From Candidatus Lindowbacteria bacterium RIFCSPLOWO2_12_FULL_62_27 (GTDB lineage: Bacteria > Lindowbacteria > 2-12-FULL-62-27), in contig MFPR01000027.1 of NCBI GenBank assembly GCA_001784175.1, forward strand, positions 579 to 45,150: 44,572 nucleotides of DNA. The letters are read 5' to 3'. This document shows, piece by piece, positions 1 through 9,681 of this stretch. The notes beneath the pieces were generated by a model. It had not been told where the DNA came from. It made no database searches and saw only the letters and a program-made list of their open reading frames with translations. Numbering within the stretch: position 1 is the first letter of the stretch; every line of letters starts with the position of its first letter. The position numbers were made by a program, and so were the translations under genes.

Positions 1-582
1 CGTCGCCGTGCCGCTACTGCGGCACGGACGACGCCGAGAGAGACGACGGCGGGAATTCGGGCGGAATGCGGCGTACCGACAGCTGTTTATCTGCTGGCAA
101 GCGGCTCCTGGGATAGCCCCTCCGAAAGTTGTTTTGCGCTCGCCATGAATCTCCACCGGCGTGGGCGAGCGCTTCAATGAGGACCCGTATTTCGTTCCCG
201 GAATCGCACTCGCTGGGCGACCGATTTCGTCCTGCGGCAATTTTTGCCGCAGGGCGACGGCCGCCGAAAAAGCGCTGACGTTGCCTTCACGATCACGGGT
301 TCGCACATTGCCCCTGCCGCCGCGGTTGATCGGGAAGCACAGACGTGGGCGGGTTCGTCCCGGCCGCCGGAGGCGGGCGGGACGAGTGCCGCCGGCGATC
401 GCGTGTTGCGGAGGGAATGGGCACGGGGCAGCGGGATGTGGATGCGGCACGGAATATGCGCTCGTGCGGCACCACGTGTGTCTGCGGCGCATAATCGTAT
501 TCTTTGATCGTTTTTGGTTTCGGATCAAACTACATACGTTCGATACTCATCAATTGGTTACGGACTAAAAATCTTTTTTGCT

Positions 583-611
583 TGACTTTTTAAAATAAAA
601 GTCGATAATCC
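583..611 (+). promoter_or_regulatory. sigma70-like promoter (TTGACT -17 nt- GATAAT/ATAATC) in an AT-rich island
   Basis: TTGACT at 583-588, 17-nt AT-rich spacer, ATAAT at 606-610. The segment is locally AT-rich in a 65% GC context and sits upstream of the small ORF at 660. Confidence 0.45.
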
Positions 612-659: not shown

Positions 660-848
660 ATGGTTCGAGTAACCCTGAGAGAAAGTCTTAAATCCAATCA
701 GCAACCATTATGCCTATGGGCCGCGATGTGCTCACGGACGGGGATTTATTTGCCCAGTGAGACAACCGTCAACCATATATCGCAGGCGGCCTTTAATAGT
801 GCTGATAGGAATCTCATAGACGCTCTCGGGAATAGGGTGCATACATGA
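660..848 (+). CDS. small hypothetical protein (62 aa); longer alternative start at ATG 630
   Basis: RBS GGGGAGA lies 5 nt upstream of ATG 660. The ORF sits between the predicted promoter and the intrinsic terminator. No recognizable domain. Confidence 0.3.
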   Translation: MVRVTLRESLKSNQQPLCLWAAMCSRTGIYLPSETTVNHISQAAFNSADRNLIDALGNRVHT

Positions 849-882
849 TCTAGTCGATCCAAGCGTATATTCGAACGCAAAA

Positions 883-924
883 CCCCGAGAGCCTTTCAAA
901 GGCTTTCGGGGTTTTTTGTTTTTT
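883..924 (+). terminator. Rho-independent terminator
   Basis: 11-bp GC-rich stem (ccccgagagcc / ggctttcgggg) with a 7-nt loop, followed by TTTTTTGTTTTTT. Confidence 0.65.
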
Positions 925-984
925 CTGGGGGTTTCGACATAGATCAGTTCTTTGACAAGTGAATACGGTGTTGTTTTTTCGTTT

Positions 985-1057
985 TGGAGAGTCGTCCAAA
1001 GGTAGGACCGCAGATTCTGGATCTGCGTATGCAGGTTCGATTCCTGCCTCTCCAGCC
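985..1057 (+). tRNA. tRNA-Gln(CTG), CCA encoded
   Basis: 7-bp acceptor tggagag/ctctcca. D stem gtcc/ggac. Anticodon stem gcaga/tctgc with loop ttCTGga. T arm gcagg-TTCGATT-cctgc. Discriminator G, then CCA. Confidence 0.8.
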
Positions 1058-1080
1058 AATTTTGTTTCGGGCAGTTTGGT

Positions 1081-1152
1081 GTGGTCGGAGCATGGCGGTC
1101 TGTGCGGCCGGTTGTGGCCCGGCATGCCTGGGTTCGACTCCCAGCGATCACC
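1081..1152 (+). tRNA. tRNA-His(GTG)
   Basis: Acceptor gtggtcg/cgatcac (one G-U). D stem gcat/gtgc with a GG loop. Anticodon stem gccgg/ccggc, loop ttGTGgc. T arm ctggg-TTCGACT-cccag. No G-1 or CCA encoded. Confidence 0.65.
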
Positions 1153-1167
1153 CCCGACTGCCTGGAT

Positions 1168-1252
1168 GGGCGTGTGGCAGAGCGGCGATTGCACCTGACT
1201 GTAGATCAGGCGGGCCTCTGGCCCTTCGGTGGTTCGAGTCCATCCACGCCCA
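1168..1252 (+). tRNA. tRNA-Tyr(GTA), class II
   Basis: Acceptor gggcgtg/cacgccc. 3-bp D stem. Anticodon stem cctga/tcagg, loop ctGTAga. Long variable arm. T arm ggtgg-TTCGAGT-ccatc. Confidence 0.8.
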
Positions 1253-1257
1253 TTTTT

Positions 1258-1331
1258 CCCGGTCGGAAGGAGATGGTCTCCTTGCCGCTCTCATAAGGCG
1301 GACATTCCGGGCTCGATACCCGGGGCCGGGA
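1258..1331 (+). tRNA. tRNA-Met(CAT), elongator or Ile2-type. Non-canonical T-loop CTCGATA.
   Basis: Acceptor cccggtc/ggccggg. D stem aagg/cctt. Anticodon stem ccgct/ggcgg, loop ctCATaa. T stem ccggg/cccgg. Confidence 0.6.
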
Positions 1332-1359
1332 CAAATTCTCAAGAAGGAGGTCGGAGAAA

Positions 1360-1587
1360 ATGGAGACGTACGTTTTGAAGTACACGGTGCGGTTCGTGAC
1401 GATTGACGATCCCACGGCGCGTCAGACTACTCAGCGGATTTTGACGACAGTTGGGGAATGTCTGAAAGACACACTCTCCGACCTGCCCTTGGTGGCGGAC
1501 ACGTTGGAGACGGAGGCGCGGTGTGTTCGTCACGGAGATCGGACTAACCGCGATATTCTGACTGGAAAATCTTCCGCATCAACATAA
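1360..1587 (+). CDS. hypothetical small protein (75 aa) inside the tRNA array
   Basis: Consensus RBS AAGGAGG at 1344-1350, 9 nt upstream of ATG 1360. The 228-nt ORF lies between tRNA-Met and the next tRNA-like gene. No recognizable domain. Confidence 0.35.
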   Translation: METYVLKYTVRFVTIDDPTARQTTQRILTTVGECLKDTLSDLPLVADTLETEARCVRHGDRTNRDILTGKSSAST

Positions 1588-1588
1588 C

Positions 1589-1667
1589 TGCGGAGGGGAG
1601 GTGGACGGCGGAGCCGTCTTCGAGGGCCCATAACCCTCTTAAGCCGGTGCGACTCCGGCCTCCGCTA
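1589..1667 (+). tRNA. tRNA-like, anticodon CAT, initiator-like features. About 79 nt with an expanded D region; possibly a pseudo or atypical tRNA.
   Basis: Acceptor gcggag/ctccgc with an unpaired 1:72. Anticodon stem gaggg/ccctc carries three consecutive G-C pairs, as in initiator tRNA. Loop ccCATaa. T stem gccgg/ccggc with loop TGCGACT. An extra 5-bp hairpin gacgg-cggag-ccgtc sits in the D region. Confidence 0.35.
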
Positions 1668-1668
1668 T

Positions 1669-1753
1669 GGACTCGTCGCCTAATTGGAATGGCCCCAGAC
1701 TCTTAATCTGGCGGGCGTTACGCCCATTGGGAGTTCGAGTCTCCCCGGGTCCA
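1669..1753 (+). tRNA. class II-shaped tRNA with anticodon CTT (Lys-type)
   Basis: Acceptor ggactcg/cgggtcc. 3-bp D stem gcc/ggc. Anticodon stem ccaga/tctgg, loop ctCTTaa. 17-nt extra arm forms hairpin gggcg-tta-cgccc. T arm gggag-TTCGAGT-ctccc. Discriminator A. Confidence 0.55.
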
Positions 1754-1760
1754 TTTGTAT

Positions 1761-1843
1761 TCCGAGGTCGCCTAATTGGTCGGGCAGCGCACTGTTAATG
1801 CGCCGCGGATTTCGCACTGTGGGTTCGAATCCCACCCTCGGAG
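1761..1843 (+). tRNA. class II-shaped tRNA with anticodon GTT (Asn-type)
   Basis: Acceptor tccgagg/cctcgga. 3-bp D stem gcc/ggc. Anticodon stem gcgca/tgcgc, loop ctGTTaa. 15-nt extra arm (gcg-gattt-cgc). T arm gtggg-TTCGAAT-cccac. Discriminator G. Confidence 0.55.
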
Positions 1844-1909
1844 TTTTTTCAAACGGTTTGAAGGAGGTGATGGAATTGAAATCGGACAAAGACGGTAAAG
1901 GGTAGTGAT

Positions 1910-1982
1910 GGGCTTGTAACTCAATTGGCTGAGTACCGGACTTTTAATCCGGGAGATGTGGGTTCGAGTCCCACCGGGCCCA
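1910..1982 (+). tRNA. tRNA-Lys(TTT)
   Basis: Acceptor gggcttg/cgggccc. D stem actc/gagt. Anticodon stem ccgga/tccgg, loop ctTTTaa. T arm gtggg-TTCGAGT-cccac. Confidence 0.85.
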
Positions 1983-1988
1983 AGATAC

Positions 1989-2073
1989 GGCGCAGTGGTG
2001 GAACTGGGATACACGCGAGTCTCAGAAACTCGTGCTCTATTCGAGCGTGAGAGTTCGAATCTCTCCTGCGCCA
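1989..2073 (+). tRNA. tRNA-Leu(CAG), class II
   Basis: Acceptor ggcgcag/ctgcgcc. 3-bp D stem. Anticodon stem cgagt/actcg, loop ctCAGaa. Extra arm gctc-tatt-cgagc. T arm gagag-TTCGAAT-ctctc. Discriminator A. Confidence 0.85.
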
Positions 2074-2078
2074 TTTTT

Positions 2079-2152
2079 GCGGCATTCGTATAGGGGCAAT
2101 ACATCACGTTGCCAACGTGAAGACACGAGTTCAATTCTCGTATGCCGCTCCA
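2079..2152 (+). tRNA. tRNA-Gly(GCC), CCA encoded
   Basis: Acceptor gcggcat/atgccgc. D stem gtat/atac. Anticodon stem tcacg/cgtga, loop ttGCCaa. T arm acgag-TTCAATT-ctcgt. Discriminator T, then CCA. Confidence 0.85.
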
Positions 2153-2155
2153 AGT

Positions 2156-2390
2156 GGAGGGTGAATCGATCGGGGATCGGCGCTGTGTGCTACACAGTTG
2201 GTCCGCCATGCGCGGATAGGGGTCGGCCGTTCGCGACATCCGTGTCGCTCGGCGGCACTTCCTCCGTCCATGGAGGTCGGGACCTTCGCCCTCCGTTACG
2301 GAGAGTCAACCTCGCAGGGCGAGGCACTGGTTTGAAACCAGAGGGTCCGCGAAAGTGGATGAGGATCGAGACCTCGGCTCTCCGCAAGAT
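2156..2390 (+). ncRNA. structured RNA-like element A (unassigned family). Domain 1 spans 2156-2294 and domain 2 spans 2299-2384.
   Basis: Not a tRNA. A 6-7 bp closing helix ggaggg(t)/(g)ccctcc encloses domain 1, which holds a 64-nt core nearly identical to element B. A second domain is closed by (c)ggagag/ctctcc(g). Internal hairpins tccgc-N5-gcgga and cctcc-gtccat-ggagg. Compensatory changes relative to paralog B. Confidence 0.4.
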
Positions 2391-2463
2391 GCGGGCGTGG
2401 TGTTCAACAGCAGCATGACAGTCTTCCAAACTGTCGGTGCCGGTGCAATTCCGGTCGCCCGCT
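2391..2463 (+). tRNA. tRNA-Gly(TCC)-like. Weak D arm, non-canonical T-loop TGCAATT.
   Basis: Acceptor gcgggcg/cgcccgc. Anticodon stem acagt/actgt, loop ctTCCaa. T stem gccgg/ccggt. The D loop lacks GG. Confidence 0.5.
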
Positions 2464-2469
2464 CAAAAC

Positions 2470-2543
2470 AGCCTCGTCGTCCAACTGGACAGGACACCTC
2501 TTTGCGAAGGAGGAGATTGCGCGTTCAAGTCGCGCCGAGGCTA
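2470..2543 (+). tRNA. tRNA-Arg(GCG)-like, atypical D arm
   Basis: Acceptor agcctcg/cgaggct. Anticodon stem cctct/ggagg, loop ttGCGaa. T arm gcgcg-TTCAAGT-cgcgc. The D region is one nucleotide too long with a short loop. Confidence 0.45.
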
Positions 2544-2545
2544 TA

Positions 2546-2780
2546 GGGAAGGTGAACCTCGCGGGCGGGGCGCTGTTTGGAAGACAGTCGGTCCGCTTAA
2601 AGCGGATGCGGGTCGGCCGTTCGCGACATCCCTGTCGCTCTGCGGCACTTCCTCCGTCCATGGAGGTCGGGACCGCCGCCTTCCGTTGTGGAGAGTGAAA
2701 CCGGGAAGCCCGATCGCCGTTCCGAAGACGGATGGCCCCGCCATGCGGGGTGGGGTGCGATACCTCCGCTCTCCGAAATA
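2546..2780 (+). ncRNA. structured RNA-like element B, paralog of A. Domain 1 spans 2547-2684 and domain 2 spans 2689-2775.
   Basis: Closing helix ggaagg(t)/(g)ccttcc. The 4th pair is A-U here versus G-C in element A. The 64-nt core at 2611-2674 is about 97% identical to 2221-2284. Hairpin tccgc-ttaaa-gcgga has the same stem as in A with a different loop. Second domain closed by (t)ggagag/ctctcc(g). Confidence 0.4.
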
Positions 2781-2851
2781 GGCCGGTAGTATCAACAGTA
2801 GAACGTCGGTCTCCAAAACCGAAGGTCTCGGGGCAGAACCGAGCCGGCCTG
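2780..2851 (+). tRNA. tRNA-Trp(CCA)-like. Poor D stem, non-canonical T-loop GGCAGAA.
   Basis: Acceptor aggccgg/ccggcct. Anticodon stem tcggt/accga, loop ctCCAaa. T stem ctcgg/ccgag. Confidence 0.45.
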
Positions 2852-2903
2852 TGACTGAAAGGAATCCCCGAGGTACTCGCCCGAAGGGCGGGTCGGGGAC
2901 CAT

Positions 2904-2976
2904 GGGCACTGAGCAGGCGTAGTCGTTGCGTCCGGCTGAAGACCGGAAGAGCGTGGTGCGATCCCACGAGTGCCCA
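2904..2976 (+). tRNA. tRNA-Phe(GAA). T-loop TGCGATC.
   Basis: Acceptor gggcact/agtgccc. D stem gcag/ttgc. Anticodon stem tccgg/ccgga, loop ctGAAga. T stem cgtgg/ccacg. Discriminator A. Confidence 0.7.
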
Positions 2977-2979
2977 CTT

Positions 2980-3049
2980 CGCGGCGAGCAGAGAAGCTCT
3001 GGGATGGTCTGCAAAACCATCAAAGTCGGGGCGGTACCGACCGCCGTGT
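2980..3049 (+). tRNA. tRNA-Cys(GCA)-like. Short D loop, non-canonical T-loop GGCGGTA.
   Basis: Acceptor cgcggcg/cgccgtg (one G-U). D hairpin cagag-aagc-ctctg. Anticodon stem atggt/accat, loop ctGCAaa. T stem gtcgg/ccgac. Confidence 0.45.
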
Positions 3050-3052
3050 CAC

Positions 3053-3123
3053 GCCCGATTAGGTCAGTGGCAGACCAACCGTCTTGTAAGCGGTGAACGT
3101 CGGCTCGATTCCGACATCGGGCT
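3053..3123 (+). tRNA. tRNA-Thr(TGT). T-loop CTCGATT.
   Basis: Acceptor gcccgat/atcgggc. D stem ggtc/gacc with a GG loop. Anticodon stem accgt/gcggt, loop ctTGTaa. T stem gtcgg/ccgac. Confidence 0.75.
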
Positions 3124-3130
3124 TACCTGC

Positions 3131-3203
3131 GCCCTCCTAATTCAATTGGACAGAAACGGGAGTTTCTACCTCTCGGATGCGTGTTCGAGTCACGCGGAGG
3201 GCA
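3131..3203 (+). tRNA. tRNA-Arg(TCT)
   Basis: Acceptor gccctcc/ggagggc. D loop contains GG. Anticodon stem gggag/ctctc, loop ttTCTac. T arm gcgtg-TTCGAGT-cacgc. Confidence 0.8.
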
Positions 3204-3209
3204 ATTCTC

Positions 3210-3280
3210 GCCGCCATAGTTCAGTGGCAGAACAGAAAACTCGTAATTTTCAGACCTGCGTTCGATTCGCAGTGGCGGCT
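3210..3280 (+). tRNA. tRNA-Thr(CGT)
   Basis: Acceptor gccgcca/tggcggc. D stem gttc/gaac. Anticodon stem gaaaa/ttttc, loop ctCGTaa. T arm ctgcg-TTCGATT-cgcag. Confidence 0.85.
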
Positions 3281-3284
3281 TTTC

Positions 3285-3356
3285 GGGGGCGTAGTGAGAA
3301 CGATAACACGGCTGGTCTGCACCCAGCAGATGAGAGTTTGAATCTCTCCGCCTCCA
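3285..3356 (+). tRNA. tRNA-Ala(TGC) with the G3:U70 identity pair
   Basis: Acceptor gggggcg/cgcctcc with G3-U70. Anticodon stem gctgg/ccagc, loop tcTGCac. T arm gagag-TTTGAAT-ctctc. Discriminator A. Confidence 0.75.
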
Positions 3357-3361
3357 CTTTT

Positions 3362-3447
3362 CGGCGTGTGGCTGAACGGTAAAAGCGCCGTCCTGATAAG
3401 GCGGTGGGCTGAAGTAGTCCGCGTGCGTTCGACTCGCACCGCGCCGA
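3362..3447 (+). tRNA. class II-shaped tRNA with anticodon GAT (Ile-type)
   Basis: Acceptor cggcgtg/cgcgccg. 3-bp D stem gct/agc with a GG loop. Anticodon stem ccgtc/ggcgg, loop ctGATaa. 18-nt extra arm (gggc-tgaagta-gtcc). T arm gtgcg-TTCGACT-cgcac. Discriminator A. Confidence 0.55.
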
Positions 3448-3455
3448 GCATTTAC

Positions 3456-3548
3456 CCACGGGTAGCATAGCGGCCAATGCAGCAGGCCTATAACCTGCGT
3501 TAGCTCCGGACTGGGGCGAGATCGTGGGTTCGAGTCCCACCCCGTGGA
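3456..3548 (+). tRNA. class II-shaped tRNA with anticodon TAT (AUA-reading or Ile2-type). Very long extra arm of about 25 nt.
   Basis: Acceptor ccacggg/cccgtgg. D stem gcat/atgc with a GG loop. Anticodon stem gcagg/cctgc, loop ccTATaa. T arm gtggg-TTCGAGT-cccac. Discriminator A. Confidence 0.45.
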
Positions 3549-3569
3549 TTTGATGTGTGAGGTACATAC

Positions 3570-3644
3570 GGCTCGGTGGTGTAGCAGCCTGCACACGGCT
3601 CTGTCACAGCCGAGGTACGAGGGCAGCACTCGTCCGAGCCGCCA
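3570..3644 (+). tRNA. tRNA-Asp(GTC), CCA encoded. Non-canonical T-loop GGCAGCA.
   Basis: Acceptor ggctcgg/ccgagcc. Anticodon stem cggct/agccg, loop ctGTCac. T stem acgag/ctcgt. Discriminator G, then CCA. Confidence 0.6.
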
Positions 3645-3645
3645 T

Positions 3646-3721
3646 CAGGGAATGGGATAATCTGGTAGTCCGCCGCACTTGGGACGCGGTCGTCCGAGTT
3701 CAAATCTCGGTTCCCTGACCA
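3646..3721 (+). tRNA. tRNA-Pro(TGG), CCA encoded
   Basis: Acceptor cagggaa/ttccctg. D stem ggat/gtcc with a GG loop. Anticodon loop ctTGGga. T arm ccgag-TTCAAAT-ctcgg. Discriminator A, then CCA. Confidence 0.75.
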
Positions 3722-3733
3722 AACTTCAAGTAC

Positions 3734-3808
3734 GGGCGCGTGGTCCAGCAGCGAAGACATCAGTCCTACAAACTGAAAACCTCGGTGCAAGTCCGAGCGT
3801 GCCCACCA
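3734..3808 (+). tRNA. tRNA-Val(TAC), CCA encoded. T-loop TGCAAGT.
   Basis: Acceptor gggcgcg/cgtgccc. Anticodon stem tcagt/actga, loop ccTACaa. T stem ctcgg/ccgag. Discriminator A, then CCA. Confidence 0.7.
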
Positions 3809-3865
3809 AATCTGACCGACCGGATGGAGGAAATGTCGCGGGCGCCAGGGATGGCGCAGGAGCGA

Positions 3866-3942
3866 CCTCTCGTCGCCCAATTGGAAAAGGCACCGATTTC
3901 CTAAATCGGGGACTGCGCGTTCGAATCGCGCCGAGAGGCCCA
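3866..3942 (+). tRNA. tRNA-Arg(CCT), CCA encoded
   Basis: Acceptor cctctcg/cgagagg. D stem gcc/ggc with a GG loop. Anticodon stem ccgat/atcgg, loop ttCCTaa. T arm gcgcg-TTCGAAT-cgcgc. Discriminator C, then CCA. Confidence 0.8.
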
Positions 3943-3955
3943 GTAAGACCAATGA

Positions 3956-4028
3956 CCGCTCGTAGTGAAACTGGATATCACGCGACGCTTCGAACGTCGT
4001 AATGAGGGTTCGAATCCTTCCGAGCGGA
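3956..4028 (+). tRNA. tRNA-Arg(TCG)
   Basis: Acceptor ccgctcg/cgagcgg. D stem gtga/tcac with a GG loop. Anticodon stem cgacg/cgtcg, loop ctTCGaa. T arm gaggg-TTCGAAT-ccttc. Confidence 0.85.
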
Positions 4029-4033
4029 TTTGT

Positions 4034-4116
4034 GGCGATGTGGCGGAACGGAATACGCGGCTGTTTCAAGAACAGTTGATCGTAAGATCGTGAGAGTTCG
4101 ACTCTCTCCATCGCCA
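4034..4116 (+). tRNA. tRNA-Leu(CAA), class II
   Basis: Acceptor ggcgatg/catcgcc. 3-bp D stem. Anticodon stem gctgt/acagt, loop ttCAAga. Extra arm gatcg-taa-gatcg. T arm gagag-TTCGACT-ctctc. Discriminator A. Confidence 0.8.
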
Positions 4117-4121
4117 ATTTT

Positions 4122-4205
4122 GCGGGCGTGGCGGAATGGGATACGCGGCGGATTTAAGACCCGCTGGGGCAGAGCCCCGTGCAGGTTCAAGTCCTGTCAC
4201 CCGCA
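4122..4205 (+). tRNA. tRNA-Leu(TAA), class II
   Basis: Acceptor gcgggcg/cacccgc (one mismatch). 3-bp D stem. Anticodon loop ttTAAga. Extra arm ggggc-aga-gcccc. T arm gcagg-TTCAAGT-cctgt. Discriminator A. Confidence 0.7.
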
Positions 4206-4208
4206 TTC

Positions 4209-4295
4209 GGCCGAGTGGTGGAACTGGAATACACGCGCGGTTGAGGTCCTCGTGGACGAAAGTAGTCCTTGCGAGTTCGAGTCTCGCCTCGGCCA
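4209..4295 (+). tRNA. tRNA-Leu(GAG), class II
   Basis: Acceptor ggccgag/ctcggcc. 3-bp D stem. Anticodon loop ttGAGgt. Extra arm ggac-gaaagta-gtcc. T arm gcgag-TTCGAGT-ctcgc. Discriminator A. Confidence 0.75.
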
Positions 4296-4300
4296 GTTTT

Positions 4301-4373
4301 GGGGCGGTAGGCGAATGGTAGAGCCGCCGGCCTTTCAAGCCGGAGTCTGTGGGTTCAAGTCCCATCCGCCCTG
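4301..4373 (+). tRNA. tRNA-Glu(TTC)
   Basis: Acceptor ggggcgg/ccgccct (G1-U72). D stem ggc/gcc. Anticodon stem ccggc/gccgg, loop ctTTCaa. T arm gtggg-TTCAAGT-cccat. Discriminator G. Confidence 0.8.
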
Positions 4374-4377
4374 TTGT

Positions 4378-4450
4378 GGGGGTATCGGCTAATCGGCAGG
4401 CCGCCGTGTTCTCAGCGCGGAAACCGCGGGTTCGAATCCCCGTACCCCTG
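4378..4450 (+). tRNA. tRNA-Glu(CTC)-like. Imperfect T stem.
   Basis: Acceptor gggggta/tacccct. D stem ggct/ggcc. Anticodon stem ccgtg/cgcgg, loop ttCTCag. Only 3 of 5 T-stem pairs form around TTCGAAT. Discriminator G. Confidence 0.45.
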
Positions 4451-4455
4451 GTCAT

Positions 4456-4530
4456 TGGGGAGTCGTCTAATAGGTAGGACGCGAGACTTTGGATCTCGCT
4501 ATGCAGGATCGAAGCCTGCCTCCCCAGCCA
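4456..4530 (+). tRNA. tRNA-Gln(TTG), CCA encoded. Non-canonical T-loop ATCGAAG.
   Basis: Acceptor tggggag/ctcccca. Same architecture as the first Gln. Anticodon stem cgaga/tctcg, loop ctTTGga. Discriminator G, then CCA. Confidence 0.7.
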
Positions 4531-4645
4531 TTTTCGAACAAATACGAACGTTGGCGCGGGCACGCCAGCGGCGCACAGGTGACCAAGTATCTTGGATTTC
4601 ATTTGTGCGTTCCGCCAATGGATTCTAAACGTGCCCGGAGCCAGA

Positions 4646-4718
4646 CGTTGGTTAGCTCAGCAGGCAGAGCATCAGGCTGTGAACCTGAGAGTCGCGGGTT
4701 CGAATCCCGCACCAACTT
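4646..4718 (+). tRNA. tRNA-His(GTG)-like, second copy. 1:72 mismatch.
   Basis: Acceptor cgttggt/accaact with C1 unpaired against T72. D stem gctc/gagc with a GG loop. Anticodon stem tcagg/cctga, loop ctGTGaa. T arm gcggg-TTCGAAT-cccgc. Confidence 0.55.
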
Positions 4719-5070
4719 CGGGTGGAAACACCCGCCAGTGGAAAACCGCGCAAGCGGGCTCAGAACGCGTCCGATGGAGACGAACGCTCGATCAACTGGC
4801 CGACGCGCGGATAATGGCCGCACCGGAAGTACGCGCCGGCGTCTGTCGGAGGCAACACAAATACGCCGCCCTGCAGCTCGCAGATACCGCATCGCCGACC
4901 GTGGCAACCTCCGACGGATTTCATACTCGTCGGAAAACCCATGCGAGCGATGCTCAAGCGACGCTCCGCGGATGATGTGCAGTTGGACTTGCCGTTCGTC
5001 TCCTGAGGGCCTTATTTCAACACATATCGAGAAAGGCGAAATCAAAAATCAGAAAGGGAGGTGAATCGCC

Positions 5071-6177
5071 ATGTTCTTGATTGGATACCGGAAGATTCGT
5101 TCCTACGAGAGGGGCCTGTACTTCTACGATGGGGAGTTCCGGAAAATTCTGGCCACAGGCCGACATTGGTTCGTGGATCCTCTGAACCGCATCCGGATCG
5201 ATGTTGTGTCCCAGCGCGACCCCTGGCTGGACCATGACAAGCTCGACATCATCGTCAAGTCCGGTGTCCTCAAGGACGAGGCGGTGGTACTGGACCTGAA
5301 GGACTATGAGCGCGCGCTCGTGTGGATCGACGGCCGGTTCAGCCGCGTGCTGGATGCAGGTCTCTACGCGATGTGGTCCAAGTTCCGCGACATCAAGACG
5401 GAGATCGTTGACGCGCGGGCCGTGCTGTTCGAGCACAAGAGCATCGACGTCATCCTGAAGTCGGGGGGTGTCGATGCAGTGCTCAATGTCTTCAACGTCG
5501 AGGAGGGTCACGCCGGCGTCTATTTCAAGGACGGTGAATACGTCAAGACACTGGCTCCGGGCAAGTATGCGACGTGGAAGAACGTCGGCAAGGTCAAGTT
5601 CTACCACCTCGACGTGCGCGAGACGGTACTCGACGTGGCCGGCCAGGAGATCATGACGGCCGACAAGGTCACGCTCCGGATGAACGCGATCGTGACCTAT
5701 CGCATCGTTGATGCCCGCAAGTCCGTCGAAACGGTCGGAGACGTGGCGCAGGCGCTGTATCGTGAGGCGCAGCTGGCGCTTCGTGCCGCAGTCGGCACAC
5801 GAGAGCTTGAGCCGCTTCTGGTCGACAAGACCGACGTTGCGAAGGAACTCGAGTCCGTCATTCGCCGACGCGCGAGCGAGTTCGGCATTCACGTGATCGG
5901 TCTTGGCATTCGAGACATCATCCTGCCGGGCGACATGAAGACGTTGCTCAACAAGGTGCTCGAGGCCAAGAAGGCGTCCGAGGCGAACGTGATTCTGCGA
6001 CGCGAGGAGACGGCAGCCATGCGCAGCCAGCTCAACACGGCGAAGCTCATGGAGGACAATGCGGTTCTGATGCGCCTCAAGGAACTGGAGGTGCTGGAGA
6101 AGGTCGCGGGCGCGTCTAAGCTGAGCGTCGTGCTGGGTGAGAAGGGATTGGCCGAGCGTGTGGTCAATCTGCTGTGA
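5071..6177 (+). CDS. SPFH/band-7 (stomatin/prohibitin-like) domain protein with three N-terminal ~35-aa repeats
   Basis: RBS GGGAGGTGA lies 6 nt before the ATG. A 368-aa ORF. Its C-terminal half has SPFH-like composition (TADKVTLRMNAIVTYRI...GIRDIILPGDM...coiled-coil tail). The N-terminus has three tandem ~35-aa repeats. Confidence 0.8.
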   Translation: MFLIGYRKIRSYERGLYFYDGEFRKILATGRHWFVDPLNRIRIDVVSQRDPWLDHDKLDIIVKSGVLKDEAVVLDLKDYERALVWIDGRFSRVLDAGLYAMWSKFRDIKTEIVDARAVLFEHKSIDVILKSGGVDAVLNVFNVEEGHAGVYFKDGEYVKTLAPGKYATWKNVGKVKFYHLDVRETVLDVAGQEIMTADKVTLRMNAIVTYRIVDARKSVETVGDVAQALYREAQLALRAAVGTRELEPLLVDKTDVAKELESVIRRRASEFGIHVIGLGIRDIILPGDMKTLLNKVLEAKKASEANVILRREETAAMRSQLNTAKLMEDNAVLMRLKELEVLEKVAGASKLSVVLGEKGLAERVVNLL

Positions 6178-6389
6178 GCAGTAAGGAGGAACGATGTTTA
6201 CGGTAGACGAGTTTGAAAGCGGCGGAGGGGGGCCGGATCAAAAACGCAGCGGCGGCCCCCCTCCTTGGAGCCGGGTGATCCGAACAAACAGGCAACACCG
6301 TATTCAACGCCCGCATGGTGTGAGTGGCAGCACGTCGCCGGGGTAAGGCGGAGGTCTCGGATCAAAACCGAGTGCGGGCTTGATCAATT

Positions 6390-7061
6390 ATGTTCAGGAG
6401 GAATGATGTGACTGGTGTACTGGTTCAACCAACGTTGCTTTTGAATTCCAGTTTTCTGCCGGTGTCGGTCATCCGTGTGATGGAGGCAATCTGTCTGCTC
6501 GTTACTTCCAAAGCCGATCTAATAGACGGTGACGAGAGGGAACCGATCCGTTCGCAAAGATTGTCGATCCCTCTGCCGAGGGTCGTACGCCTGTTGAATT
6601 TCAACGGGATTCCGTCGAACCCGGCCTGGTCAAGATTGAAGGTGATTTACCGGGACGACATGACCTGCGCCTGGTGCGGCAAGCGCGGCCGTATGGAGGA
6701 ACTGGACTGCGACCACATCATTCCCCGATCACGGTGGCACGTTTGTCCGCCGAATCTTCGCCGAGCATACGAAGTTCCACGAGTGAAACTCCAGAACATT
6801 GCAGCCCCTTGGAATTCGTGGATGAACACCCTCGCGGCCTGTCGAAAATGCAACGCCGCCAAGGGAAATCTCTATCCATGGGAGATGGGCCACCGCCCCC
6901 TCTGGTCGCCGTACGAGCCGGAATACGTCCCATCCATCATTGTCAGCTTCGAGCGAGCAAAAAATCTTGGCTGGCTGGATTATCTGCTCACGCGCCGCGG
7001 GACGCTCGTCTATCCGTCGGGAGTGCGTGCCGTGGGTGTGCCCTCCAGAAAACGGATATAG
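6390..7061 (+). CDS. HNH endonuclease family protein
   Basis: RBS AGGAGGAATG precedes the ATG. HNH motif CAWCGK...DHIIP...N...CRKCNAAKG (CxxC...H...N...CxxC). Confidence 0.75.
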   Translation: MFRRNDVTGVLVQPTLLLNSSFLPVSVIRVMEAICLLVTSKADLIDGDEREPIRSQRLSIPLPRVVRLLNFNGIPSNPAWSRLKVIYRDDMTCAWCGKRGRMEELDCDHIIPRSRWHVCPPNLRRAYEVPRVKLQNIAAPWNSWMNTLAACRKCNAAKGNLYPWEMGHRPLWSPYEPEYVPSIIVSFERAKNLGWLDYLLTRRGTLVYPSGVRAVGVPSRKRI

Positions 7062-7075
7062 TATTTAATACTAAT
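7059..7075. repeat. 17-bp AT-rich near-palindromic site TAGTATTTAATACTAAT, copy 1
   Basis: Identical 17-mer at 9114-9130. Both copies sit in short AT-rich intergenic islands of a GC-rich genome. Confidence 0.7.
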
Positions 7076-7154
7076 TTATTGACTACTGGACAAATCACTG
7101 GTACATGCAGTATAGACACTGTAAGACCGAATAAACTGATGGGGGTGGTCCATT

Positions 7155-7433
7155 GTGACGGTTCCAGAAACAGAATCGAACGAGGCACAGAAAACCGAAG
7201 AAATCTGTAAGCGTAAACCCGGGATTCCGGACGTGCCCATTCCATCTGGCCCGTACCTGAATTCTGTAGAAGCCGCCTGTTATTTGCGCTTGTCGCTCGG
7301 CACAATCGCCAACCTTGTATCCGAGGGGAAGATTCCTTTTGCAAAAGCGGGCCGCCGGCGCGTCTTCCGTAGGACCGACCTCGATGAATATGTCGAGAAG
7401 TCGTACAAGCCGGCAGTCCACAACTCGTTTTAG
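7155..7433 (+). CDS. excisionase/Xis-like helix-turn-helix DNA-binding protein
   Basis: GTG start with a GGGGGTGG RBS. The C-terminal segment SVEAACYLRLSLGTIANLVSEGKIPFAKAGRRRVFRRTDLDEYV resembles the excisionase-family (MerR-like) HTH. Confidence 0.55.
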   Translation: MTVPETESNEAQKTEEICKRKPGIPDVPIPSGPYLNSVEAACYLRLSLGTIANLVSEGKIPFAKAGRRRVFRRTDLDEYVEKSYKPAVHNSF

Positions 7434-7945
7434 GCCGGCTCTTCAGGGAAATCCTTCCTGGGAAAAGGAATAATTTTGTTCTGCCCAAGATCTTTCTTCA
7501 CGGCAGATTCCTCGAAGCCTGGCAACGGTGCTTGTGGCGGAGTTTCCTTGCGAGTTTCCGTCCGGTAGATTTCCTCTTTGTTTTTCATTCGAAAGTGTCG
7601 CACCAAATCTTCGACGCCCCGCTGCTGACCATCCTTTAAGTCCTCGATCCCGATCAAAGATCCTCGGGACCATTTTGTGGTCAGGATGCCATCCCCGGGC
7701 AGTTTCTGATGGGCGCCTATATCTTGGCCGAGAACATAGAGCGCCTGCTGATAAGGGATGACATTTGGTGTTCCCGATGATGAGAGGATCTTCAAATACT
7801 GATCCAAGGTCGGCACCGCGCGCCCAGTGAGAATCTTTCGGAATTCAGGAGCCTTCAGGAATGGCAGATCAAGATGACGGGTGATTCGACGTAAGAAGAC
7901 ATGTAGCCTCAGTGGCTTCTTCAACGGGGTCGTGGGCTCGTTCAA
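7430..7945 (-). CDS. hypothetical protein (171 aa)
   Basis: ORF convergent with the xis-like gene. No recognizable domain. Confidence 0.4.
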   Translation of the reverse strand: MNEPTTPLKKPLRLHVFLRRITRHLDLPFLKAPEFRKILTGRAVPTLDQYLKILSSSGTPNVIPYQQALYVLGQDIGAHQKLPGDGILTTKWSRGSLIGIEDLKDGQQRGVEDLVRHFRMKNKEEIYRTETRKETPPQAPLPGFEESAVKKDLGQNKIIPFPRKDFPEEPA

Positions 7946-8214
7946 TTACCACAGGAATGCTGCTTCGACTTCGACTGCGTTCGGTTCATCGTCGGCCTCC
8001 TCGATATGAATATCCCCCTCAGAATTCCGGTGATTCGGGAGGCGACGGGGTTTTCCTGAACGACGTTGATCAAGTATCGCGACAGATCACTGATCAGTCA
8101 AAATCAGATTTTCTCTGGCTGAATCTTTTTGTTTGGAGGATTGATTGGCGGCAGATTTTCCACAATCGCGCGGCGGATACTACAAGTTTCTAAAAGGGAT
8201 ACTACCAGTACAGC

Positions 8215-8283: not shown

Positions 8284-8324
8284 ACCGTGCACAATTCCCA
8301 GAATCCACACGGAAGTGTGGACAA

Positions 8325-9095: not shown

Positions 9096-9113
9096 GTGGC
9101 CGCAAGGTATTAG

Positions 9114-9669: not shown

Positions 9670-9681
9670 GGGACAAATCCC

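What the first reader, a model, noticed from the sequence alone, without database searches (positions are those of the whole stretch)
980..4720. Very dense single-strand array of about 33 tRNA/tRNA-like genes next to an integrase-bearing accessory module
Most tRNA-like genes are 3-10 bp apart in 3.7 kb and all lie on the + strand. They cover Gln(x2), His(x2), Tyr, Met, Lys, Leu(x4), Gly(x2), Arg(x5), Trp, Phe, Cys, Thr(x2), Ala, Asp, Pro, Val and Glu(x2). Only a subset encode CCA. An independent promoter, small ORF and terminator lie upstream. Arrays of this kind are typical of phages and integrative elements, and recent work links them to countering host tRNA-depleting defences. Alternatively this is a chromosomal tRNA island. 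The integrase module ends about 6 kb downstream.
Basis: partly seen in the sequence, partly recalled or inferred. Interest (0 to 1): 0.7.

Follow-up and report, generated by a model that had tools for sequence, protein, structure and literature searches.

The report
Mobile tRNA gene array with attenuator
A genomic island in an uncultured groundwater bacterium (Candidatus Lindowbacteria) carries 36 densely packed tRNA-like genes covering all 20 amino acids; this is a known kind of mobile spare tRNA set, but here it sits behind a leader-peptide/terminator switch that may turn it on when translation falters, which gives a testable idea of how such arrays are controlled.

Summary
Window 985-4719 carries 28 ARAGORN tRNAs and 27 Rfam hits above threshold, all on the + strand.

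It is a mobile long tRNA array ("tRNA array unit" / L-array), not a core tRNA island. Its composition is foreign. It lies on an island over 19.5 kb long that ends at integrase plus tRNA-Thr, and three different flanks follow that tRNA in related contigs.

The array belongs to a 6.5-kb module (553-7061): promoter, 62-codon leader ORF rich in host-rare codons, strong terminator with a competing antiterminator, array, a structured RNA absent from Rfam ("motif X") plus the tRNA-like element, an SPFH gene and an HNH endonuclease.

Homologous modules occur in at least 39 other loci, mostly Planctomycetota. One locus is flanked by phage genes.

In 17 of 17 examined relatives the leader ORF's stop codon lies inside the antiterminator strand. 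This suggests translation-coupled attenuation.

A back-up or counter-defence role is inferred, not shown. The verdict is a new variant of a known kind.

The parts
582..609 (+). Sigma-70-like promoter, TTGACT-16-GATAAT
   Evidence: This is the only promoter-like site in 400-7200 (10 of 12 matches). It is conserved in the Hainich variant L022, whose homology with the window begins about 30 nt upstream of it, at about 553.
660..848 (+). Leader ORF of 62 codons with a GGAG-type ribosome-binding site. It contains all 20 amino acids. 34% of its codons are rare in the host, and it includes 11 of the 13 rarest host codons.
   Evidence: One search gives the codon statistics; host genes have 3-21% rare codons. 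The ORF is 97% identical in L022. It has no Pfam, PHROG or PADLOC hit.
822..830 (+). Putative antiterminator strand GCUCUCGGG inside the leader ORF, 16 nt before its stop codon
   Evidence: It is perfectly complementary to the terminator 5' arm at 883-891. The minimum-energy fold of 800-900 forms this helix. The duplex is -19.9 kcal/mol, against a best of -13.6 among 200 control windows. The pairing is kept in L022 through changes on both strands.
879..915 (+). Intrinsic terminator with a 17-bp stem and a T-run, between the leader ORF and the first tRNA
   Evidence: The fold of 800-925 has z = -3.5.
985..1332 (+). tRNAs Gln-ctg 985-1058 (CCA encoded), His-gtg 1081-1154, Tyr-gta 1167-1253 and Met-cat 'a' 1258-1332 (T-loop CUCGAUA)
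   Evidence: The Met 'a' type is shared with Planctomycete arrays.
1360..1587 (+). 75-codon ORF inside the array, with a strong ribosome-binding site
   Evidence: Its only homologue family is 92% identical, in the Hainich groundwater contigs L022/L023. It has no domain hit.
1594..2152 (+). Initiator-like Met-cat 'b' 1594-1667 (three G-C pairs next to the loop, a 1:72 mismatch, T-loop UGCGACU). Lys-ctt 1668-1754 and Asn-gtt 1760-1844 both carry an extra long variable arm. Then Lys-ttt 1909-1983, Leu-cag 1989-2073 and Gly-gcc 2079-2152.
   Evidence: In L022/L023 the differences fall in loops. Orthologous Lys-ctt and Asn-gtt genes in other arrays are mostly 72-78 nt, without the extra arm.
1870..1905 (+). 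Micro-ORF M(EL)KSDKDGKG with a ribosome-binding site and three AAA codons, directly upstream of tRNA-Lys-ttt
   Evidence: The TTG-started version MKSDKDGKG is conserved in L022/L023, with one synonymous change.
2156..2775 (+). Ser-gct 2156-2295 and Ser-gga 2547-2685, each interrupted by the same 54-nt insertion. Between and after them: Ser-tga 2300-2385, Gly-tcc 2391-2464, Arg-gcg 2470-2543 and Ser-cga 2690-2775.
   Evidence: (repeat D2, 85% identity). With the insert removed, the two Ser genes are still not called by ARAGORN, so they are weak.
2227..2280 (+). Mini-insertion of 45 nt plus a direct repeat of GGAGGTCGG. A second copy is at 2617-2670.
   Evidence: Further copies sit at other sites in L022/L023 (upstream of the 75-codon ORF) and L024 (after the Thr-ggt-like gene). 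The window has clean empty sites at both places.
2780..3641 (+). Trp-cca 2780-2851, Phe-gaa 2904-2977, Cys-gca 2980-3049, Thr-tgt 3053-3123, Arg-tct 3131-3203, Thr-cgt 3210-3280, Ala-tgc 3285-3357. Ile-gat 3361-3449 and Ile-tat 3456-3548 both have an extra long variable arm. Then Asp-gtc 3570-3641.
   Evidence: Trp, Cys, Asp and Phe have non-canonical T-loops (GGCAGAA, GGCGGUA, GGCAGCA, UGCGAUC).
3646..4530 (+). Pro-tgg, Val-tac, Arg-cct, Arg-tcg, Leu-caa, Leu-taa, Leu-gag, Glu-ttc, Glu-ctc and Gln-ttg
4546..4649 (+). 'Motif X', a conserved structured RNA with no Rfam family. It fills the 115-nt gap before the last tRNA-like gene.
   Evidence: Searches show covarying helices. A covariance model (R1) built from 38 loci scores the window copy at 64 bits. 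It gives one + strand hit in 55 of 58 independent SPFH loci that have more than 750 nt of upstream sequence. No Rfam hit.
4646..4719 (+). tRNA-like element (TLS), called 'tRNA-His-gtg' by the software
   Evidence: About 40 loci have a homologue 330-600 nt upstream of SPFH. The body is conserved and the D, anticodon and T helices are 99-100% paired with compensatory changes. The 'anticodon' loop is hypervariable and 5-9 nt long. The outer 3 bp of the acceptor stem are unpaired in about half of the loci.
4720..5070 (+). Non-coding leader between the TLS and SPFH
   Evidence: The ORF called here (4489-5064) is Arg-rich, overlaps tRNAs and has no homologues beyond the tRNA-like part.
5071..6177 (+). 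SPFH/Band-7 protein, 368 aa
   Evidence: Pfam PF01145, E = 2e-30. It is 60-95% identical to homologues that follow arrays and/or motif X plus TLS in more than 100 loci.
6309..6380 (+). Degenerate tRNA-Thr-ggt-like gene (no U33, T-loop AUCAAAA)
   Evidence: ARAGORN calls it; Rfam does not. It is also present in L024 and L104.
6390..7061 (+). HNH endonuclease-like protein, a candidate homing endonuclease. Its end marks the right end of the array module.
   Evidence: phrog_16726, E = 9e-15. It is 29% identical to the HNH embedded in the L020 array. HNH homologues are found in 24-27 array loci. Homology with L024 and L104 stops at 7046-7055.
7059..9127 (.). Excisionase-like HTH 7155-7433 (+), orf171 7430-7945 (-) and RepA_C protein 8325-9095 (-). 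The block is bracketed by a 17-nt palindrome at 7059-7075 and 9109-9127.
9238..10788 (+). orf143 (9238-9669) and tyrosine integrase (9682-10788)
   Evidence: PF00589, E = 1e-24; phrog_1, E = 2e-60. L104 retains remnants of the integrase 3' part.
10825..10897 (+). Canonical tRNA-Thr-cgt. Its 3' end is the right terminus of the island.
   Evidence: It has the best Rfam score in the window, 73 bits. Window, L017 and L104 diverge from each other immediately after its 3' end.

Best explanation
Window 985-4719 is a horizontally acquired long tRNA gene array (an 'L-array' or 'tRNA array unit'). It holds 36 tRNA-like genes. Together they can read every sense codon except CUA and cover all 20 amino acids, including an initiator-like tRNA.

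The array is the core of a 6.5-kb module (about 553-7061). In order, the module holds a promoter, a 62-codon leader ORF rich in host-rare codons, and an intrinsic terminator with a competing antiterminator. Then come the tRNA genes, a conserved structured RNA (motif X), a tRNA-like element, an SPFH-family gene and an HNH endonuclease.

The module rides on a compositionally foreign island more than 19.5 kb long in a Candidatus Lindowbacteria genome. The island's right end is excisionase - RepA - integrase - tRNA-Thr.

Proposed working, all of it inferred. Transcription starts at 582-609. It normally stops at the terminator (879-915), because ribosomes translating the leader ORF keep the antiterminator strand (822-830) unavailable. 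When ribosomes lag, the antiterminator forms and RNA polymerase reads into the array. Causes of lag would include shortage or cleavage of tRNAs, starvation or ribosome inhibitors. The polycistron is then cut by RNase P and RNase Z, and CCA is added to the 30 genes that lack it. The result is a back-up tRNA pool, co-expressed with the SPFH protein. The HNH endonuclease and the integrase account for spread.

What is shown: the genes, their order, their conservation, the mobility signatures and the alternative RNA structures.
What is inferred: expression, charging, the attenuation logic and any counter-defence role.
For: The array is real.
-.

It is foreign and mobile.
- GC content and tetranucleotide composition differ from the host part.
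- Three different flanks follow tRNA-Thr.
- The module sits in different left and right contexts in L022, L024 and L104.
- Integrase, excisionase-like and RepA genes are present.
- Planctomycete modules mostly do not share flanks.
- In L020 the homologous array lies between PHROG phage genes, terminase and portal.

The modules are homologous.
- SPFH is 60-95% identical, HNH 27-30% identical, the TLS and motif X are shared, and so are two non-canonical Met tRNA types.

The tRNAs are under constraint.
- Differences between the window and the Hainich variant fall in loops.
- Non-canonical Met types are conserved across phyla.

An attenuator is plausible.
- Promoter and terminator.
- Rare-codon leader ORF.
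- Antiterminator fold. The duplex is -19.9 kcal/mol against a best control of -13.6.
- In 17 of 17 Planctomycete-type arrays examined, a conserved leader ORF of about 32-44 aa has its UGA stop inside the strand that pairs with the terminator 5' arm. L034, L071 and L085/L090 show compensatory changes. In 14 of the 17, that strand is the best of 48 candidate partners.

Published precedent.
- The Anabaena L-array is induced by translational stress and is linked to an HNH gene (PMC8421152).
- Mycobacterial arrays carry an embedded HNH gene and variant tRNA arms, and are considered putative anti-defence elements (PMC12803027).
Against: - There are no expression, processing or aminoacylation data.
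- About 8 of the 36 genes fail default detection. Several lack U33 (Val-tac, Ala-tgc, Met b, Ile-tat) or have aberrant T-loops. Two Ser genes carry a 54-nt insertion. Part of the set may therefore be dead.
- In the window the antiterminator strand lies 16 nt upstream of the stop codon rather than over it. Ribosome position therefore does not obviously decide the outcome. The fold of 800-900 is not better than shuffles (z = -0.97).
- The window leader ORF is not homologous to the Planctomycete leader peptides.
- No att repeat of tRNA-Thr was found within 18.6 kb upstream of the window start, so the left end of the island is undefined.
- Whether the host has a separate full tRNA set could not be checked.
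- Related loci were gathered through the SPFH gene, so the linkage of arrays with SPFH is biased by how they were found.
Confidence: 0.6

Rival explanations
1. Cryptic, decaying cargo. The array is a relic of a phage or mobile-element tRNA cluster. It is largely silent behind a terminator and is accumulating defects, and it has no current role for the host.
For: - A strong terminator stands directly in front of the array.
- 8-10 genes fall below the Rfam or ARAGORN thresholds.
- There are C33 and G33 anticodon loops, odd T-loops, two Ser genes split by a mobile mini-insertion, and a degenerate Thr-ggt-like gene.
- The integrase module is being deleted in the relatives L104 and L024.
- Published L-arrays are reported as poorly transcribed (PMC8421152).
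Against: - All 20 amino acids remain covered.
- Substitutions against the Hainich variant spare the stems.
- The same non-canonical tRNA types and the leader/terminator architecture are conserved across dozens of diverged loci. That is not expected of junk.
Confidence: 0.2
2. Codon compensation. The array exists to translate the AT-richer genes of the island, or of a parent phage, in a 63% GC host.
For: - Island genes use 19-34% host-rare codons (HNH, xis, orf171, RepA and the two small ORFs), against a median of about 7% in host genes.
- The array carries readers for the rare codons UUA, AUA, AGA, AGG, GUA, ACA, CCA, GCU/GCA and UCA.
Against: - The set is complete rather than targeted. It also includes readers of the commonest codons.
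- SPFH, the gene most tightly linked to the array, has host-like codon usage (9% rare codons, GC3 0.81).
- CUA, one of the rarest host codons, has no reader in the array.
- This explanation does not exclude the back-up explanation.
Confidence: 0.12
3. Housekeeping chromosomal tRNA island. This is the genome's main or only tRNA set, and it merely lies beside an integrase.
For: - The set is complete: 20 amino acids plus an initiator-like tRNA.
- Only one other canonical tRNA occurs in the 44.5-kb window.
Against: - The composition is foreign.
- The module and the island sit in variable contexts.
- Many tRNAs are non-canonical and score well below the neighbouring canonical tRNA-Thr (73 bits).
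- Thr-cgt is duplicated by that gene.
- An upstream terminator would silence a housekeeping set.
Confidence: 0.05
4. Deliberate recoding or mistranslation. The four tRNAs with long variable arms (Lys-ctt, Asn-gtt, Ile-gat, Ile-tat) are charged by SerRS or LeuRS, which ignore the anticodon, and insert Ser or Leu at Lys, Asn and Ile codons.
For: - A long variable arm is normally restricted to Leu, Ser and Tyr tRNAs in bacteria (established knowledge).
- The D-arm of Ile-gat resembles those of the array's Leu tRNAs.
Against: - Asn-gtt keeps a tRNA-Asn-like acceptor stem (UCC...GGA) and G73. Lys-ctt keeps A73.
- Without these four genes the array would lack Asn and Ile readers.
- Extra arms appear sporadically in many different tRNAs of related arrays, which looks like a tolerated insertion rather than an identity switch.
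Confidence: 0.03

Closest known systems
L-arrays, for example the trn operon of Anabaena sp. PCC 7120 (Santamaria-Gomez et al. 2021, PMC8421152)
   Same: It is a long, single-strand, co-transcribable array of 20-43 tRNA genes. It is non-periodic, horizontally transferred and adjacent to an HNH homing-type endonuclease. It is normally silent and is proposed to respond to impaired translation.
   Different: The Anabaena array is regulated through direct repeats in its promoter. Here the candidate control is a leader ORF plus a terminator/antiterminator. This array is also linked to motif X, a tRNA-like element and an SPFH gene. The host phyla are Lindowbacteria and Planctomycetota. Induction has not been tested.
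tRNA array units of Mycobacterium, Acidithiobacillus and Firmicutes (Tran et al. 2015, PMC4758250; Morgado & Vicente 2018, PMC5966550; M. avium giant linear plasmids 2026, PMC12803027)
   Same: There are at least 20 tRNA genes at 2 or more per kb. They cover 19-20 amino acids and sit on mobile elements. One HNH gene is conserved with the array. The tRNAs differ from chromosomal ones in the D, anticodon and variable arms, and flanks vary between copies.
   Different: In the window the HNH gene lies after the SPFH gene rather than inside the array. The carrier is an integrase/RepA island at tRNA-Thr rather than a plasmid or ICE. No leader-ORF attenuator, SPFH gene or motif X is reported for those arrays in the papers read.
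Phage tRNA clusters, with the proposal that phage tRNAs replace host tRNAs cleaved by anticodon nucleases, PARIS or retron effectors (PMC10264068, PMC11464382, PMC11555353)
   Same: A near-complete tRNA set is carried by a mobile element, and a homologous array lies inside a phage-like contig (L020). The set includes Lys, Asn, Gln, Glu, Tyr and Thr tRNAs, the usual nuclease targets (my own knowledge of those systems).
   Different: Here the array is resident in a bacterial chromosome island with no phage structural genes in the 28 kb examined. Host tRNAs are not available for comparison, so anticodon-loop escape changes cannot be assessed.
Ribosome-mediated transcription attenuators (trp, pheL and his leaders)
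   Same: A short translated ORF with a ribosome-binding site is followed by an intrinsic terminator whose 5' arm can pair with an upstream strand that lies in or at the end of the ORF.
   Different: The controlled genes are tRNAs, not biosynthetic enzymes. The window leader has no run of one regulatory codon; instead it samples almost every rare codon and all 20 amino acids. The relatives have a conserved peptide ending in PLR[LV]-UGA.
tRNA-like structural elements (mascRNA-type processing signals, bacterial Y RNA tRNA-like domains, viral 3' TLS)
   Same: The TLS at 4646-4719 keeps the D/T-loop core and covarying stems while losing the constraints of decoding.
   Different: There is no match to those Rfam families (the best is Tymo_tRNA-like at 19 bits against a threshold of 40). 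The TLS is always paired with motif X and sits about 0.5 kb upstream of an SPFH gene.

Membership tests
tRNA array unit (Tran et al. 2015) | At least 20 tRNA genes in one region | tested here: met
   28 genes by ARAGORN default and 27 by the Rfam gathering score. Up to 36 with relaxed search and manual calls.
tRNA array unit (Tran et al. 2015) | Density of at least 2 tRNA genes per kb | tested here: met
   28-36 genes in 3.7 kb gives 7.5-9.7 per kb.
L-array (Santamaria-Gomez et al. 2021) | All genes in one orientation and close enough to be co-transcribed; the array is not periodic | tested here: met
   All genes are on the + strand. Most spacers are 2-7 nt. No internal promoter or terminator was found on the + strand apart from the upstream ones. 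The only repeat family beyond generic T-arm matches is the mini-insertion.
L-array (Santamaria-Gomez et al. 2021) | Acquired by horizontal transfer | tested here: met
   The composition is foreign. Flanks vary. Integrase and HNH genes are linked to the array.
L-array (Santamaria-Gomez et al. 2021) | Supernumerary: redundant with a dispersed housekeeping tRNA set | tested here: inconclusive
   Only Thr-cgt is seen twice (3210-3280 and 10825-10897). The rest of the genome is not available to the tools.
L-array (Santamaria-Gomez et al. 2021) | Silent by default and induced by translational stress | not testable with these tools
   Only the sequence architecture (terminator plus antiterminator) is consistent with this.
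Ribosome-mediated transcription attenuator | Short translated leader ORF upstream of an intrinsic terminator | tested here: met
   ORF 660-848 has a ribosome-binding site and the terminator is at 879-915. The same arrangement is present in 17 relatives.
Ribosome-mediated transcription attenuator | A mutually exclusive antiterminator that involves the leader ORF | tested here: met
   822-830 pairs with 883-891. In 17 of 17 relatives the stop codon lies inside the antiterminator strand, with compensatory changes. This is computational evidence only.
Ribosome-mediated transcription attenuator | Regulatory codons whose decoding rate sets the outcome | tested here: inconclusive
   The leader has 34% host-rare codons and all 20 amino acids, but no run of a single codon. 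The relatives instead have a conserved peptide.
Canonical decoding tRNA (asked of 4646-4719) | A 7-bp acceptor stem and a 7-nt anticodon loop with U33, with the anticodon conserved among orthologues | tested here: not met
   The outer 3 acceptor pairs are unpaired in 19-27 of 40 homologues. The loops are 5-9 nt. More than 20 different 'anticodons' sit in an otherwise conserved body.
Integrative element inserted at a tRNA gene | Tyrosine integrase next to a tRNA gene whose 3' end is the junction | tested here: met
   The integrase is at 9682-10788 and tRNA-Thr at 10825-10897. Three different flanks start right after the tRNA.
Integrative element inserted at a tRNA gene | A direct repeat of the tRNA 3' part (att) at the other end of the element | tested here: not met
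   No repeat of 12 nt or more was found in the window or in the 18.6 kb upstream of it. The left end was not reached.
Prophage | Phage structural or packaging genes within the element | tested here: not met
   There are no terminase, portal or capsid PHROG hits in the 28 kb from L184:1 to window 10897. Only the relative L020 has them.

The most novel reading that the evidence does not exclude
The tRNA array is one part of a conserved, multi-phylum stress operon that has not been described. A leader peptide senses the state of translation and, by attenuation, gates transcription of three things: a complete spare tRNA set, a new structured RNA (motif X plus a tRNA-like domain with a free 'anticodon' loop) and an SPFH membrane-scaffold protein. 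On this reading, long tRNA arrays are translation-failure-inducible back-up systems. They would respond, for example, to tRNA-cleaving defence or toxin nucleases. They would be neither constitutive codon helpers nor junk.
Probability: 0.35. Interest if true: 0.8.

Novelty: new variant of a known kind. Interest (0 to 1): 0.62.

Why it matters
Long tRNA arrays on mobile elements have been catalogued for a decade, but what they do and how they are switched on is largely open. Only the Anabaena array has functional data.

This locus and its relatives (at least 39 array-bearing loci) offer a concrete, sequence-encoded control device that simple reporter assays can test. It is a leader ORF whose translation decides between terminator and antiterminator. 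If the device works, it links array expression directly to ribosome stalling. That is the condition created by tRNA-targeting immune nucleases, starvation and ribosome-targeting antibiotics.

The work also extends such arrays to Candidatus Lindowbacteria and shows that they are common in Planctomycetota, including cultured strains: Adhaeretor mobilis, Lacipirellula limnantheis and Bythopirellula polymerisocia. That makes experiments possible.

It also brings up a candidate new RNA motif tightly linked to SPFH genes in several phyla.

Tried and rejected
1. Plasmid and phage databases. Megablast of the array gave no match.
2. ORF 5071-6177 as an integrase. Rejected; it is SPFH/Band-7.
3. ORF 4489-5064 as an NfeD-like partner of SPFH. 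Rejected; it is Arg-rich, overlaps tRNAs and has no homologues.
4. Divergence among contigs that carry the same proteins. L001-L019 are about 100% identical and so useless for covariation.
5. The 75-codon ORF as an anchor for relatives. It has only one close family.
6. L017's alternative junction as the circular form of the island. Its tail matches nothing in the 18.6 kb upstream, so it is more likely another host flank.
7. Search for the att repeat or the left end of the island. Not found within L184.
8. The island as a prophage or a known defence island. There are no structural PHROG hits and only faint PADLOC hits (IetA-like AAA, BrxL).
9. Pairing between the TLS 'anticodon' loop and its own leader, as in an in-cis T-box-like contact. 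Observed 4.58 nt against a control of 4.69, so rejected.
10. The window leader ORF as a homologue of the Planctomycete leader peptides. Not so.
11. An ECF-sigma-type promoter in front of the Planctomycete modules. A strict pattern matches only 7 of 17 (4% in shuffles), so this is kept as tentative.
12. Restoring the two split Ser genes by removing the insertion. ARAGORN still does not recognise them.
13. Literature search for attenuators in front of tRNA arrays, or for SPFH-linked tRNA-like RNAs. None found in the held library.

Full report
OBSERVATION

ARAGORN at default settings finds 30 tRNA genes in the 44.6-kb window. Of these, 28 lie in 985-4719 and all are on the + strand. Rfam's tRNA covariance model independently gives 27 hits above its gathering score in the same stretch. 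One of them, 2780-2851 (anticodon CCA), ARAGORN missed.

Lowering ARAGORN's threshold adds two Met-cat genes, Ser-tga and Ser-gga. Reading the remaining gaps gives Ser-gct, Ser-cga, Cys-gca and Asp-gtc. These fold as cloverleaves or near-cloverleaves without constraints.

The tally is 36 tRNA-like genes plus one tRNA-like element. The anticodons cover all 20 amino acids and every sense codon except CUA. Spacers are mostly 2-7 nt, and six genes encode CCA.

The upstream promoter (582-609), small ORF (660-848) and terminator (879-915) are all present. The integrase (9682-10788) is real.
- Ser x4, Asn, Ile x2 and a second Lys were missed.
- Arg is x4, not x5.
- The second 'His' is not an ordinary tRNA.
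- ORF 5071-6177 is an SPFH protein, not an integrase.

QUALITY OF THE tRNAs

Many are non-canonical.
- Rfam does not score ten of them at all: both Met, all four Ser, Phe, Cys, Arg-tct and Asp.
- Several have C33 instead of U33, or T-loops such as GGCAGAA and UGCGAUC.
- Four genes with Lys-CUU, Asn-GUU, Ile-GAU and Ile-UAU anticodons carry a long variable arm. In bacteria that arm normally belongs to Leu, Ser and Tyr tRNAs.
- Two Ser genes are interrupted, between the variable arm and the T-stem, by the same 54-nt insertion.

The set still looks constrained.
- In the only diverged close relative (Hainich groundwater contigs L022/L023), the differences in Lys-ctt, Asn-gtt and the other shared tRNAs lie in loops.
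- The two odd Met types (T-loops UGCGACU and CUCGAUA, reduced D-arms) recur in Planctomycete arrays.
- Extra variable-arm hairpins appear sporadically in different tRNAs of different related arrays.

The extra arms therefore look like a tolerated peculiarity of this array family rather than an identity switch.

WHERE IT COMES FROM

Exact-protein look-ups place the window on a 260-kb scaffold from the Rifle aquifer and on NCBI contig MFPQ01000117.1. NCBI names the neighbouring host proteins as Candidatus Lindowbacteria bacterium.

The left 10.9 kb differs sharply in composition from the rest. GC is 0.57 against 0.63. Tetranucleotide L1 distance is 0.29-0.37, against at most 0.165 for host windows of the same size. 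Low GC continues at least 8.6 kb further left and declines to host-like values only about 17-18 kb upstream of the window start.

MOBILITY

Three contigs carry the same or a closely related island and diverge from each other immediately after the 3' end of tRNA-Thr-cgt (10897). They are the window, L017 and L104. The tRNA's 3' end is therefore the island terminus, and the integrase and a full tRNA-Thr sit on the island side.

In L104 only fragments of the integrase remain. In L024 the xis-RepA-integrase block is absent, and ordinary genes follow the HNH gene. On the left, homology with L022 begins at about 553, just upstream of the promoter.

So a 6.5-kb module, about 553-7061, behaves as a unit within different surroundings.

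I did not find the left end of the island or an att repeat within 18.6 kb upstream. Those genes have no phage structural hits and no clear defence-system hits.

RELATIVES

The SPFH protein just downstream of the array was used as an anchor.
- In IMG/VR it is 66% identical to a gene on a 94-kb viral contig (L020). There it follows an array of at least 36 tRNAs with an embedded HNH gene. That array is flanked upstream by PHROG phage families and downstream by terminase and portal.
- In one-genome-per-species contigs, 347 relatives were found. The best 80 are almost all Planctomycetota. At least 23 of them carry a 15-40-gene array directly upstream of the SPFH gene on the same strand, with a largely conserved gene order. 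They include the cultured strains Bythopirellula polymerisocia, Adhaeretor mobilis and Lacipirellula limnantheis.
- JGI metagenomes add 16 more arrays.
- HNH homologues accompany the arrays.
- Flanks are mostly not shared between these loci.

These loci were collected through SPFH, so the strength of the array-SPFH linkage is biased by the sampling.

Published work already defines this class.
- 'tRNA array units' have at least 20 genes at 2 or more per kb. A few Planctomycetes were noted among them (PMC4758250).
- 'L-arrays' are horizontally spread and HNH-linked, and the Anabaena one is induced by translational stress (PMC8421152).
- Mycobacterial arrays have an embedded HNH gene and variant D, anticodon and variable arms, and are viewed as putative anti-defence elements (PMC12803027).

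THE LAST 'tRNA' AND THE GAP BEFORE IT

The gene at 4646-4719 belongs to a family found 330-600 nt upstream of SPFH in about 40 loci, whether or not an array is present. The loci without arrays include Lentisphaerota, Acidobacteriota and Geobacteraceae.

Its D, anticodon and T helices are 99-100% paired, with many compensatory changes. But the outer three acceptor pairs are unpaired in about half of the loci. The 'anticodon' loop varies from 5 to 9 nt and shows more than 20 different triplets. It is a tRNA-like structural element, not a decoding tRNA.

A test for pairing between this loop and its own leader was negative.

The 115-nt gap before it (4531-4645) holds a second conserved RNA, motif X. 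It has covarying helices and the invariant stretches CCAGCGGCG and GUUCC...GGGUUCU.

A covariance model built from 38 loci finds exactly one + strand copy in 55 of 58 independent SPFH loci with enough upstream sequence. The median position is 523 nt upstream of the SPFH start. No Rfam family matches it.

I cannot tell what motif X plus the tRNA-like element do. Candidates are a processing signal that separates the tRNA polycistron from the SPFH mRNA, and a regulatory leader for SPFH.

REGULATION

This is the main mechanistic lead. In the window the only good promoter (582-609) is followed by a 62-codon ORF with a ribosome-binding site, and then by a 17-bp terminator 70 nt before the first tRNA.

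The ORF contains all 20 amino acids. 34% of its codons are rare in the host, against 3-21% in host genes, and it includes 11 of the 13 rarest host codons.

Nine nucleotides inside its 3' end (822-830) are perfectly complementary to the terminator's 5' arm. Without the 3' arm, the minimum-energy fold forms this antiterminator. The duplex (-19.9 kcal/mol) beats all 200 control windows, whose best is -13.6.

The Planctomycete-type arrays have unrelated leader sequences but the same logic. In all 17 distinct leaders in which both elements could be located, a conserved ORF of about 32-44 codons (consensus MTS[IF]R...ANTLP..PLR[LV]) ends in a UGA. That UGA lies inside the strand GUGACACC.GGCC, which pairs with the terminator 5' arm GGCCCGGUGUCAC. 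Compensatory changes occur in L034, L071 and L085/L090. In 14 of the 17, that strand is the best of 48 candidate partners.

I infer ribosome-mediated attenuation. Prompt translation of the leader masks the antiterminator and transcription stops. Lagging ribosomes leave it free and the array is transcribed. This would explain why such arrays look silent. It fits the Anabaena result and offers a route by which tRNA depletion could switch the array on.

None of this has been tested. In the window the geometry is less clean than in the relatives, because the antiterminator strand lies 16 nt before the stop codon. I found no paper in the held library that describes an attenuator in front of a tRNA array.

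VERDICT

The feature is real. It is a mobile long tRNA array of a known kind, in a new host lineage, and it belongs to a large and previously little-noticed family in Planctomycetota.

What is new is its conserved company: leader-ORF attenuator, motif X plus tRNA-like element, and SPFH gene. The recurrent structural oddities of its tRNAs are also new.

The back-up or counter-defence function is plausible but inferred. A cryptic, partly decayed state is the main rival.

Noticed in passing
window 4546-4649; the same element in L020-L183 about 0.5 kb upstream of SPFH genes: 'Motif X' is a structured RNA of about 100 nt with covarying helices and the invariant stretches CCAGCGGCG and GUUCC..GGGUUCU. 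It is always followed by the tRNA-like element. It is present in 55 of 58 independent SPFH loci and has no Rfam family.
   Followed up: partly
window 4646-4719 and about 40 homologues (alignment A2): The tRNA-like element has a conserved body, a hypervariable 'anticodon' loop of 5-9 nt and a truncated acceptor stem. Some homologues (L081, L085, L093, L097, L102) end in CCA.
   Followed up: partly
window 2227-2280 and 2617-2670; L022:~1190-1245; L023; L024:1291-1346: A 54-nt mini-insertion (45 nt plus a direct repeat of GGAGGTCGG) has copies at different sites in close relatives, with clean empty sites elsewhere. It appears to be a small mobile element that targets GGAGGUCGG. One of its hairpins would sequester the GGAGG sequence.
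   Followed up: partly
window 1870-1905: A conserved micro-ORF (M(EL)KSDKDGKG) with a ribosome-binding site has three AAA Lys codons in 9-11 codons and sits directly before tRNA-Lys-UUU. It may be a local leader peptide.
   Followed up: no
window 1360-1587: A 75-codon ORF with a strong ribosome-binding site is embedded in the array. Its only homologues are in Hainich groundwater contigs (92% identity), and it has no domain.
   Followed up: partly
Planctomycete-type arrays, e.g. L020 6745-6996, L031, L042, L107: tRNAs with the Leu anticodons UAG, CAA, GAG and UAA are mostly 74-79 nt, so they lack the long variable arm that is universal in bacterial tRNA-Leu. Only Leu-CAG is long. Their identity is unclear.
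   Followed up: no
L028 4041-4130, L020 5942-6031/7654-7744/9020-9113, L042 7007-7395 and others: Hairpin insertions of about 15-20 nt occur sporadically in the variable region of otherwise orthologous tRNAs (Ile, Asn, Thr, Arg, Gly, Phe, Gln, Val), and differ from array to array.
   Followed up: partly
L022 ~935-960 (homologue of window tRNA-Tyr 1167-1253) and L022 1464-1532: The Hainich variant has a 25-nt insertion in the D-loop of tRNA-Tyr. It also has a 9-nt shorter D-arm in the initiator-like Met tRNA.
   Followed up: no
L184:10001-10654 (8 kb upstream of the window start): A 217-aa protein with no Pfam domain has more than 3200 homologues at 67-80% identity across Deltaproteobacteria, Planctomycetes and Actinomycetota. 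It is part of a same-strand block of uncharacterised island genes.
   Followed up: partly
L184:13047-14201: A 384-aa protein is made of only the cytoplasmic C-terminal domains of FlhA (FHIPEP) and FlhB, without the membrane parts. It lies on the island next to an AAA ATPase and a YAcAr/SLOG protein.
   Followed up: no
window 7059-7075 and 9109-9127: A 17-nt palindrome (ATAGTATTTAATACTA-like) brackets the xis-orf171-RepA block. It may be an operator of the integrative module.
   Followed up: no
L028 and L031 (contig CAWDRV010000004.1, 50 kb apart): Two complete array-HNH-SPFH modules lie in one Planctomycetia contig.
   Followed up: no
upstream of leader ORFs in L020, L028, L042, L053, L056, L085, L122; also L069, L077, L089: A GAACC-N16-CGTC motif resembling ECF-sigma promoters precedes several Planctomycete modules and some array-less SPFH loci. 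A strict pattern matches 7 of 17 leaders, against 4% of shuffles.
   Followed up: partly
window 6309-6380; also L036 11161-11235, L145 11223-11295, L072 2551-2624: A second, degenerate tRNA-like gene often sits just downstream of the SPFH gene.
   Followed up: no
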